DNA of 64,000 nucleotides from an uncultured archaeon (lineage in GTDB: Archaea; Micrarchaeota; Micrarchaeia; Anstonellales; Anstonellaceae): the NCBI GenBank assembly GCA_902384555.1, contig CABMCD010000002.1, positions 1,151-65,150 of the forward strand. Direction: 5' to 3'. Positions within the stretch are counted from its first letter, which is position 1. Each line of letters begins with the position of its first letter. The notes below the pieces were generated by a model. That model saw only the letters and a list, made by a program, of their open reading frames with translations. It searched no databases and was not told where the DNA came from. Positions 63,353-63,540 of the stretch are shown piece by piece. The position numbers were made by a program, and so were the translations under genes.

Positions 63353-63540
63353 TTCAAGGCCATACCGGAAGGGCCGGGTCAAAAAGAAGATATTTCCTTT
63401 TGTGTGGGAGGTGAGAGACCCGACCGCCCGGTATGGCCGTGAATGGAAATTCAAAGCCACGCGGGAAGGGCCGGGTCAAAAAGAAGATATTTCCTTTTGT
63501 GTGGGAGGTGAGAGACCCGACCGCCCCGCGTGGCCATGAA
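63353..63540 (-). ncRNA. Two tandem 91-nt structured elements (63353-63443 and 63450-63540), candidate ncRNA or cis-element
   Basis: Identical 63-nt cores (63367-63429, 63464-63526); closing stems differ by three compensatory pair changes; mismatches become G-U pairs on the minus strand. Confidence 0.6.

What the first reader, a model, noticed from the sequence alone, without database searches (positions are those of the whole stretch)
63353..63540. Tandem covarying 91-nt hairpin elements exposing an anti-Shine-Dalgarno-like strand
Seen: two units with a 97-nt period and identical 63-nt cores. Their closing stems differ by three fully compensatory changes (CATACC/GGTATG versus CACGCG/CGCGTG). 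On the minus strand each folds as an 11-bp stem, a small internal loop, a 9-bp stem (GGUCGGGUC/GACCCGGCC), a one-sided 15-nt bulge UCUCACCUCCCACAC and an 8-bp cap hairpin; three plus-strand mismatches become G-U pairs, which points to the minus strand. Established: the archaeal 16S 3' tail reads AUCACCUCC, and genes here use GAGGTG-type SDs. The bulge contains UCACCUCC. Inference: a selected structured RNA that could sequester SD sequences in cis or trans, or, read on the plus strand, bait the 16S tail. I recognise no known family.
Basis: partly seen in the sequence, partly recalled or inferred. Interest (0 to 1): 0.85.

Follow-up and report, generated by a model that had tools for sequence, protein, structure and literature searches.

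The report
Conserved archaeal RNA hairpin, anti-Shine-Dalgarno loop
The two tandem hairpins are real copies of an undescribed structured RNA that sits just after a small regulator gene in Micrarchaeota archaea and always exposes the same 13 bases, which resemble the ribosome's mRNA-docking sequence, so it probably regulates translation, though this is untested.

Summary
Two 91-nt hairpins lie at 63353-63443 and 63450-63540, with a 97-nt period. They share an identical 63-nt core, and their outer stems differ by three fully compensatory pairs (0 of 200,000 simulations reach three).

The element is one module (H4) of a conserved non-coding block of about 200-300 nt. This block follows an ArsR-like winged-helix gene on the same strand (window minus strand). 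I found it in 10 Micrarchaeota loci, with GC from 37% to 57%. Only this window has two copies.

Across 11 copies the stems covary: 20 of 27 pairs change on both sides and 90% of cells are paired. G.U cells outnumber A.C cells 22 to 4, which fixes the RNA sense as the minus strand. UCACCUCCCACAC is invariant and predicted unpaired. Nothing matches in Rfam, plasmids, phages or viral contigs. No extra copies, no coding potential and no mobile-element features were found.

Function is inferred, not shown. The most likely role is a 3'-UTR-borne or 3'-UTR-derived regulatory RNA whose C-rich, anti-SD-like loop pairs with G-rich ribosome-binding sites. This is analogous to bacterial CcsR/"cuckoo" RNAs and Methanosarcina sRNA154/sRNA41. 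No significant target was found in the window, and SD use there is weak.

The parts
63450..63540 (-). H4 hairpin, copy proximal to the wHTH gene ('right' copy). Outer stem GGCCACGCGGGG/UCCCGCGUGGCU, stem 2 GGUCGGGUC/GACCCGGCC, 15-nt bulge, 8-bp cap.
   Evidence: Fold. Covariance-model hit of 110.1 bits on the minus strand.
63353..63443 (-). H4 hairpin, distal ('left') copy. Outer stem GGCCAUACCGGG/UCCGGUAUGGCC; the inner 63 nt are identical to the other copy.
   Evidence: Covariance-model hit of 109.2 bits.
63444..63449 (-). 6-nt spacer (UUUCCA on the RNA strand) between the two hairpins.
63499..63511 (-). Invariant unpaired motif UCACCUCCCACAC in the right copy. It contains UCACCUCC, the same bases as the archaeal 16S 3' tail.
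   Evidence: P(unpaired) 0.97.
63402..63414 (-). Invariant unpaired motif UCACCUCCCACAC in the left copy.
63478..63486 (-). Conserved U-rich run CUUCUUUUU in the right copy. Here it forms the 3' arm of the cap hairpin. In relatives without a cap it is single-stranded.
63381..63389 (-). Conserved U-rich run CUUCUUUUU in the left copy.
63549..63574 (-). H3 hairpin GGGAUUGCGA-UUGGCC-UCGCAACUCC. It is followed by the conserved linker CUCAUAUUCAU (63541-63548 region).
   Evidence: RNAalifold with compensatory changes. Per-sequence folds.
63588..63626 (-). H2: closing stem CUUGC/GCAAG (invariant in 7 of 7) around a variable inner hairpin GUGC..GCAC.
63583..63593 (-). Invariant 11-mer GGCAAGGCGAC. 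It is kept even where it falls inside the end of the coding region (L014, L021).
63635..63652 (-). Small hairpin GCCGG..CCGGC across the wHTH stop codon. Found only in the GC-rich relatives.
63337..63352 (-). Conserved pyrimidine-rich tail after H4 (..AAAAAAUUGUUCUUAGCGG). Likely 3' end or terminator region of the RNA. On the plus strand, TTTTTT here probably terminates the upstream plus-strand gene.
   Evidence: Comparison. The role is inferred.
63643..64000 (-). 3' part of the linked gene: a 147-aa coiled-coil plus ArsR/SmtB-like winged-helix protein (P0002). It runs off the window.
   Evidence: AlphaFold model and Foldseek search.

Best explanation
Shown or strongly supported (about 0.9): each unit is a copy of a conserved structured RNA module, H4. 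It is read on the window's minus strand. H4 is the last hairpin of a non-coding block (H2, GGCAAGGCGAC, H3, linker, H4, U-rich tail). This block directly follows an ArsR-like winged-helix regulator gene in Micrarchaeota, and I saw no canonical promoter between the gene and the block. It is therefore most likely transcribed as the gene's 3' UTR. Variable, covarying stems hold an invariant 13-nt C-rich sequence, UCACCUCCCACAC, in a large bulge or loop. A conserved U-rich run follows it.

Inferred mechanism (about 0.4): the exposed loop is a seed that copies the ribosome's anti-Shine-Dalgarno sequence. It would pair with G-rich ribosome-binding sites (GGAGGUGA-like) of SD-led mRNAs and mask them from the 30S subunit. 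It could act as part of the mRNA or after being cut out as a 3'-UTR-derived small RNA. The U-rich run may recruit an Sm-like protein.

In this genome the module has been duplicated. The three compensatory changes in the outer stem keep the two copies folding independently, which doubles the number of exposed seeds.
For: Family and synteny:
- An 18-mer scan of genomes and a motif scan of metagenomes found true homologues only in Micrarchaeota-type loci.
- Contigs encoding homologues of the neighbouring gene gave more.
- In every locus the element lies 0-120 nt after the gene's stop codon on the same strand, whatever gene follows.

Structure:
- On an 11-copy structural alignment, 90.2% of cells pair, 20 of 27 pairs change on both sides, 0 of 500 shuffles reach this, and slid controls give 35-51%.
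- RNAalifold independently recovers H2, H3 and the outer stem of H4.

Strand: 22 G.U cells against 4 A.C cells.

Non-coding:
- The distance from GGCAAGGCGAC to the motif is 81-87 nt in all three phases, with stop codons in some loci.
- The ATG at the hairpin base is missing in one copy, is followed by a stop in L005, and reads another frame in L017 (sequences).

Accessibility: the motif's mean P(unpaired) is 0.57-0.99, and CCUCC is about 1.0 in 10 of 11 copies.

Duplication:
- 3 compensatory doubles among 8 differences, 0 of 200,000 simulations.
- A tandem of two identical copies is predicted to misfold into a nested cross-copy structure (about 52 cross-copy pairs). The real pair gives 0.00.

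Precedents:
- CcsR/cuckoo RNAs carry an anti-SD motif in hairpin loops, occur as tandem copies and come from the 3' UTR of a small gene (PMC8034643).
- M. mazei sRNA154 and sRNA41 mask ribosome-binding sites (PMC5867862).

The 16S 3' tail sequence ..GAUCACCUCCU is textbook knowledge; I did not check it in these genomes.
Against: - No expression data are available, so neither the transcript ends nor the strand are observed directly.
- No significant target was found. The best duplex in the window (-21.4 kcal/mol, at 17108) is within the range of shuffled loops.
- SD-like sequences are not enriched before starts in this window (13/50 against 10/50). Most called genes in related loci lack a strong SD.
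- The invariant motif is 13 nt long. That is more than SD masking needs and would also fit a protein-binding site.
- A U5-6 run inside the loop could terminate archaeal transcription before the 3' arms are made.
- The four most distant copies were aligned by hand to the structure, which inflates the pair counts somewhat.
- The most distant relative examined (ARM1, L021) lacks H4.
Confidence: 0.4

Rival explanations
1. A cis-acting 3'-UTR element that binds a protein. The invariant 13-mer, and perhaps GGCAAGGCGAC, would be recognition sites for an RNA-binding protein, a nuclease or the regulator itself. The element would control stability, processing or translation of the wHTH mRNA rather than pairing with other RNAs.
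For: - Strict linkage to one gene in all loci.
- 13 invariant bases are more than a short seed needs.
- GGCAAGGCGAC is kept even inside the coding end in L014 and L021.
- No significant trans target was found.
- In the CcsR system the neighbouring small protein binds the RNA (PMC8034643).
Against: The neighbouring protein has an ordinary ArsR/SmtB-type DNA-binding fold, and its own promoter carries operator-like repeats. An 8-of-8 match to the anti-SD sequence would then be coincidence. No candidate binding protein was identified.
Confidence: 0.25
2. Mainly a transcription-end element. The stable hairpin plus U-rich tracts would terminate the wHTH transcript and protect it from 3' exonucleases, and insulate it from the next gene. 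The loop sequence would be incidental.
For: The element always sits at a gene end. U-rich runs occur inside and just after the hairpin. It lies between convergent genes in the window, L001 and L005.
Against: Archaeal termination needs only U-tracts (textbook). A 13-nt C-rich sequence invariant from 37% to 57% GC genomes is not explained. Nor are the upstream conserved hairpins H2 and H3 or the 11-mer. The plus-strand gene has its own T6 run before the hairpin.
Confidence: 0.1
3. A very short independent sRNA. The AT-rich linker (CAUAUUCA; TTTATATT in L018) would be a weak TATA box about 22-24 nt upstream of the motif. Transcription would start at the loop and end at the U-run, giving a 30-40-nt RNA with a 5' seed.
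For: The spacing from linker to motif is constant at 22-24 nt in the window, L017 and L018. A U5-6 run follows the motif. L018 has a canonical-looking TTTATATT at that place.
Against: This RNA would contain neither 5' arm and only part of the 3' arms, so the strong stem covariation and the G.U bias would be unexplained. The linker is far from the TTTAWATA boxes seen at the wHTH promoters of the same loci. L014 lacks the linker.
Confidence: 0.08
4. A mimic of the 16S rRNA 3' end. It would titrate a factor that recognises that end (a processing nuclease, methyltransferase or initiation factor) rather than mRNAs.
For: UCACCUCC is identical to the textbook archaeal 16S tail. It is displayed single-stranded next to a helix.
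Against: Purely speculative. The bases beyond the 8-mer (CCACAC) have no known rRNA counterpart. The 16S sequence of these genomes was not available.
Confidence: 0.07
5. A plus-strand RNA whose loop GUGUGGGAGGUGA acts as a super-SD that baits the 16S tail of 30S subunits.
For: GGAGGUGA is a perfect 8-nt complement of the 16S tail. The plus strand also folds better than shuffles (z about -5).
Against: On the plus strand, 22 G.U cells become A.C mismatches, and pairing falls from 90.2% to 83.5%. The covariance model scores 110 bits on the minus strand against 31-34 on the plus strand. The plus-strand alternative pairing in the cap region is not kept in L001 (sequence). The orientation is fixed relative to the wHTH gene, not to the gene on the other side.
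Confidence: 0.03
6. A DNA-level or mobile element: a MITE, recombination site, origin element or protein-binding inverted repeat.
For: It is a long inverted repeat, tandemly duplicated in one genome.
Against: - One syntenic locus per genome. No other copy in 168 kb held here, and no matches in plasmid, phage or viral collections.
- The two copies in one genome have different arms, so a shared protein half-site does not explain the compensation.
- The G.U/A.C asymmetry points to RNA.
Confidence: 0.02

Closest known systems
CcsR / 'cuckoo' RNAs of Alphaproteobacteria (Rfam ar14 group; Rhodobacter CcsR1-4, Sinorhizobium NfeR)
   Same: Hairpins display a C-rich anti-Shine-Dalgarno motif in their loops. 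Homologous units occur in tandem, and copy number differs between genomes. They lie directly after, and are co-transcribed with, a small protein gene and derive from its 3' UTR (PMC8034643).
   Different: - Different domain of life.
- No sequence or covariance-model similarity: Rfam found nothing.
- The motif is UCACCUCCCACAC, not CCUCCUCCC.
- There is one long hairpin with a one-sided bulge or large loop per unit, rather than two short stem-loops.
- The partner gene is an ArsR-like wHTH protein, not DUF1127.
- Processing, expression and targets are unknown here.
Methanosarcina mazei sRNA154 and sRNA41
   Same: These are archaeal small RNAs whose loops carry anti-RBS sequences that mask ribosome-binding sites of target mRNAs (PMC5867862). 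This is the mechanism proposed here.
   Different: They are intergenic, independently transcribed and restricted to Methanosarcina. No sequence relationship was detected. The present element is tied to the 3' end of one gene in Micrarchaeota, and its function is untested.
C-rich-loop sRNAs of Firmicutes (RsaE/RoxS type)
   Same: Unpaired C-rich stretches pair with G-rich SD regions (from my own knowledge; not tested here).
   Different: They are bacterial and unrelated in sequence and architecture, and they did not match in the Rfam search.
Hairpin-plus-U-tract terminators
   Same: A stable hairpin and U-rich tracts at a gene end.
   Different: The hairpin is much longer (91 nt). Its interior carries an invariant 13-nt unpaired motif. 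It is preceded by two more conserved hairpins.

Membership tests
Any Rfam 15 family (including ar14/CcsR, archaeal SRP RNA, RNase P RNA, C/D and H/ACA sRNAs) | Covariance-model match at or near the family's gathering score | tested here: not met
   The whole window at gathering thresholds gives only two tRNAs. The 500-nt region at E<=10 gives only chance hits: a plant miRNA at 15 bits against 130, and sR44 at 9.8 against 45. Six homologous loci at E<=1 give only tRNAs and chance hits.
CcsR / cuckoo RNAs | CCUCCUCCC motif in the loops of two short hairpins per unit | tested here: not met
   The motif here is UCACCUCCCACAC, in one bulge or large loop of a single long hairpin.
CcsR / cuckoo RNAs | Adjacency to a DUF1127 gene (CIN1 context) in Alphaproteobacteria | tested here: not met
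   The neighbour is an ArsR/SmtB-like wHTH protein of Micrarchaeota.
CcsR / cuckoo RNAs (way of working) | Tandem homologous units in the 3' UTR of a small gene, released by processing | tested here: inconclusive
   The tandem units and the position directly after the gene are met. Co-transcription and processing cannot be tested without RNA data.
RBS-masking sRNA (sRNA154/sRNA41 type) | An accessible loop complementary to ribosome-binding sites of defined targets | tested here: inconclusive
   The loop is accessible and complementary to GGAGGUGA. No target in the window stands out from shuffled-loop controls.
MITE / mobile element end | Many dispersed copies, terminal inverted repeats with target-site duplication, or a match to known elements | tested here: not met
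   There is a single syntenic locus, and no other copies in the window or the 19 other loci searched with it. Nothing was found in plasmids, phages or viral contigs.
Archaeal C/D box or H/ACA guide sRNA | C (RUGAUGA) and D (CUGA) boxes, or a pseudouridylation pocket with a 3' ACA | tested here: not met
   Reading both strands of 63330-63650 shows no UGAUGA, no symmetric pocket and no ACA after the hairpin. Rfam gives only 9.8 bits for sR44.
Protein-coding repeat or small ORF | A conserved reading frame | tested here: not met
   The period of 97 is not a multiple of 3. Spacing between conserved motifs varies in all three phases, with stops. The start codon at the hairpin base is absent in the left copy.
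5' cis-regulator / riboswitch of the downstream gene | A constant downstream gene in the same orientation | tested here: not met
   The downstream gene differs: fibrillarin (convergent), a JAB-domain gene, an unknown 354-aa gene, and short unannotated ORFs in L016.

The most novel reading that the evidence does not exclude
Micrarchaeota carry a dedicated RNA mimic of the ribosome's anti-Shine-Dalgarno tail. It is expressed together with a transcription regulator. It would act genome-wide as a competitor for SD-led mRNAs, or for a factor that reads the 16S 3' end. This would shift translation between SD-led and leaderless or SD-less messages. That would be a global translation-mode switch in a reduced, symbiotic archaeon. 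Copy number (one or two seeds) would tune its strength, and stem divergence would be selected to keep tandem copies from misfolding.
Probability: 0.12. Interest if true: 0.85.

Novelty: new variant of a known kind. Interest (0 to 1): 0.62.

Why it matters
I found no paper describing regulatory RNAs in DPANN archaea such as Micrarchaeota. This block is conserved from 37% to 57% GC genomes and has strong covariation. It has a fixed partner gene and an invariant loop that copies the anti-Shine-Dalgarno sequence.

If it masks ribosome-binding sites, the 'anti-SD loop in tandem 3'-UTR hairpins' design known from Alphaproteobacteria would have arisen independently in archaea. It would also give a direct handle on how translation initiation is controlled in organisms where most genes lack a clear SD.

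The tandem pair is also a clean natural example of compensatory stem divergence. This divergence is predicted to prevent cross-copy misfolding.

Even if the function is different, the family is a well-defined candidate for Rfam and for experimental work.

Tried and rejected
- Exact-sequence look-ups of four window proteins found no contig, so the source contig beyond the window could not be read.
- The adjacent Por_Secre_tail protein has no homologue other than itself, so it gave no synteny.
- Three viral-contig scans found nothing.
- Two of the 3 genome hits and 6 of the 9 metagenome hits were chance matches in unrelated sequence.
- Plain MAFFT misaligned the four distant copies (A2). A first N-padded attempt broke on L014 (A5). 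The final alignment, A6, uses N-padding and drops 15 loop bases of L014, which lie outside any counted pair.
- I checked the coding idea (GKAT...TSHT in one frame in the window and L014) and rejected it because the phase varies and stops occur. The small ORF starting at the hairpin base was rejected in the same way.
- Resemblances noticed by eye to RNase P CR-I (GGAAGGGCCGGGUC on the plus strand), SRP helix 8, K-turns, bulge-helix-bulge introns and origin recognition boxes were not borne out by the sequences or by Rfam.
- No complement of the loop lies in the wHTH 5' leaders or nearby.
- A 10-nt complement at 17109-17118, upstream of a DsbA-like gene, is not significant.
- The sigma-70 promoter and intrinsic-terminator scan is uninformative for an archaeon.

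Full report
**1. The observation**

Tandem Repeats Finder reports a single long-period array in the window at 63353-63541: period 97, 1.9 copies, 91% matches. Comparing the two units directly gives a 63-nt identical run, at 63367-63429 and 63464-63526. There are 8 differences inside the 91-nt hairpin. Six of them form three double changes that each keep a base pair (C-G to U-A, G-C to A-U, G-C to C-G). None of 200,000 random placements of 8 substitutions gave three such doubles.

Each unit folds on the minus strand into a long hairpin. It has a 4-bp base, a 12-bp stem, a 1x2 internal loop, a 9-bp stem, a one-sided 15-nt bulge UCUCACCUCCCACAC and an 8-bp cap. The energies are -46.7 and -48.5 kcal/mol, with z about -8 against shuffles. 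The plus strand gives z about -5. No further copy exists in the window. The description is therefore accurate.

**2. Setting**

The array lies between convergent genes:
- On the plus strand are fibrillarin (61515-62198) and a 357/368-aa protein with a Por_Secre_tail domain (62219-63325).
- On the minus strand is a winged-helix protein whose stop codon is at 63643-63645.

Fibrillarin and an intron-containing tRNA (60160-60270) mark the genome as archaeal. The window is 61% GC.

**3. Relatives**

An 18-mer from the bulge and stem found one true match among 185,579 species genomes. It is a Candidatus Micrarchaeota MAG (L001), where a single copy lies between fibrillarin and the same winged-helix gene. 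The winged-helix protein has about 105 homologues; those that carry a source name are nearly all labelled Micrarchaeota. Contigs encoding several of them show the order ERCC4 nuclease, then the wHTH gene, then a non-coding block, then a variable gene.

A motif scan of metagenomes (TCACCTCCCACAC, a gap, CTTSTTTTT) added three more true loci, including an AT-rich one (L014). Its other six hits were chance. Together with the two window copies this gives 11 copies from 10 loci, all on the strand of the wHTH gene. A covariance model built from the six closest copies recovers all 11 on that strand. It finds no other copy in the 168 kb held. Only this window has two copies.

**4. What is conserved**

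- UCACCUCCCACAC is identical in all 11 copies.
- A U-rich run follows it (CUUCUUUUU, CUUGUUUUU, GUCUUUUU, or CUUGUUGAUUG in L018).
- The stems differ widely in sequence, and partly in length, but stay paired. L014 has one 14-bp stem. L017 and L019 have 15 bp plus 4-5 bp. L018 has 9 bp plus 8 bp.
- The cap hairpin is present in only some copies. In the others the motif sits in a loop of about 31 nt.

On an 11-row structural alignment, 90.2% of cells form standard pairs and 20 of 27 pairs change on both sides. None of 500 shuffles reaches any of the five measures. Sliding the partner by 1-3 columns gives 35-51% pairing. As a caveat, I aligned the four distant rows to the structure by hand. The seven close rows align without ambiguity and already show five variants of the outer stem.

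G.U cells number 22 and A.C cells 4. Pairing is therefore 90.2% on the minus strand and would be 83.5% on the plus strand. This asymmetry, and the fixed orientation relative to the wHTH gene, make the minus strand the RNA sense.

**5. The hairpin is part of a larger block**

From the wHTH stop codon onward the relatives share four features:
- a closing stem CUUGC/GCAAG around a variable hairpin (H2);
- an invariant GGCAAGGCGAC;
- a covarying hairpin (H3);
- a linker CUCAUAUUCAU leading into H4.

RNAalifold on an ordinary MAFFT alignment predicts H2, H3 and the outer stem of H4. The block is not coding. The distance from GGCAAGGCGAC to the motif is 81-87 nt in all three phases, and stop codons occur. 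In L014 and in the distant ARM1 genome (L021) the 11-mer lies inside the end of the coding region. ARM1 has no H4. I saw no canonical TATA box between the gene and the block in the GC-rich genomes, whereas the wHTH promoters in the same loci have clear TTTAWATA boxes. Co-transcription as a 3' UTR is therefore the simplest reading. It remains inferred.

**6. What it is not**

- Rfam 15 gives nothing for the window or for six homologous loci.
- blastn against plasmids and phages, and three viral-contig scans, give nothing.
- There are no C/D or H/ACA boxes and no multi-copy or mobile-element features.
- The downstream gene is not constant.

**7. Mechanism**

The motif contains UCACCUCC, the same bases as the textbook archaeal 16S 3' tail. 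It is predicted unpaired: mean probability 0.57-0.99, with CCUCC about 1.0 in 10 of 11 copies. The best-supported idea is therefore a seed that pairs with G-rich ribosome-binding sites. This is what M. mazei sRNA154 and sRNA41 do (PMC5867862). It is also what the CcsR/cuckoo RNAs do, and these share the tandem-unit, 3'-UTR-of-a-small-gene layout (PMC8034643).

This step is not shown:
- The best duplex in the window is no better than those of shuffled loops.
- SD-like sequences are not enriched at candidate starts (13/50 against 10/50).
- Most called genes in related loci lack a strong SD.

The main rival is a protein-binding 3'-UTR element. Lesser rivals are a plain terminator or stabiliser, a short RNA started inside the hairpin, and a 16S-end mimic for a protein factor.

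The neighbouring protein is an ordinary ArsR/SmtB-type DNA binder by sequence and by predicted fold.

**8. The duplication**

A tandem of two identical copies is predicted to fold into a nested cross-copy structure: about 52 cross-copy pairs, -98 to -102 kcal/mol. The real pair folds as two separate hairpins with 0.00 cross-copy pairs. This gives a concrete reason why all compensatory differences sit in the outer stem while the 63-nt core is identical. It is a thermodynamic prediction, not an observation.

**9. Verdict**

This is a real, conserved and previously undescribed structured RNA of Micrarchaeota, read on the minus strand. The functional claim is plausible, has known analogues and is untested.

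Noticed in passing
L001 6087-6200 (-); L004 560-670; L005 2550-2658; L017, L019, L018, L021 2900-3000: The promoter region of the wHTH gene is conserved. A TTTAWATAA box is followed by three to five repeats of an ATCATGAT-like palindrome, spaced about 12-13 bp apart. These look like operators for autoregulation. TCATG also recurs at the start of H2 and at the base of H4.
   Followed up: partly
window 63583-63593 (-); L014 408-418; L021 3508-3519: The 11-mer GGCAAGGCGAC is invariant in every locus. This includes two loci where it lies inside the end of the wHTH coding region, and the distant ARM1 genome, which lacks the hairpin. Its role is unknown: a processing site, a protein site or a pairing partner are all possible.
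   Followed up: partly
window 62219-63325 (+): A gene for a 357-aa protein with a C-terminal Por_Secre_tail sorting domain is inserted between fibrillarin and the RNA block. Relatives lack it. It has no homologue other than itself among 5.8 billion proteins.
   Followed up: partly
window 60160-60270 (-); L005 4032-4142; L001 3666-3778: A 111-113-nt tRNA gene, presumably with an intron, is found by Rfam but missed by ARAGORN. It lies next to fibrillarin in the window, L005 and L001.
   Followed up: no
window 17085-17171 (+): The intergenic region upstream of a DsbA-like gene contains UCUUCUUUUU, then GUGUGGGAGG (a 10-nt complement of the loop motif), then a terminator-like hairpin with T5 and a GGAGGU SD. 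The complementarity is not significant against shuffled loops.
   Followed up: yes
window 17172-20378 (+): This stretch holds three tandem ORFs. At least the first two are DsbA/thioredoxin-like paralogues with signal-anchor-like N-termini. All three are among the few genes here with strong SDs (GGAGGU, UGGGAGGU, AAGGAGGG).
   Followed up: partly
L018 3534-4598: The public gene call for a 354-aa protein starts at the ATG at the base of the hairpin and reads through the RNA element. The true start is probably further downstream.
   Followed up: no
L017 1021-1490; L019 1066-1534; L020 13-481: An RHH_12 / ParE-toxin gene pair lies next to the ERCC4-wHTH unit in several relatives. In one contig without DNA a ParE-like pair sits between the wHTH gene and fibrillarin.
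   Followed up: no
window 63549-63574 (-) and homologues: The 3' arm of H3 and the linker are also C-rich (CAACUCCCCCUCAU, CAACUCCUCCUCAU). This is a second, partly paired CUCC-type stretch just upstream of H4.
   Followed up: no
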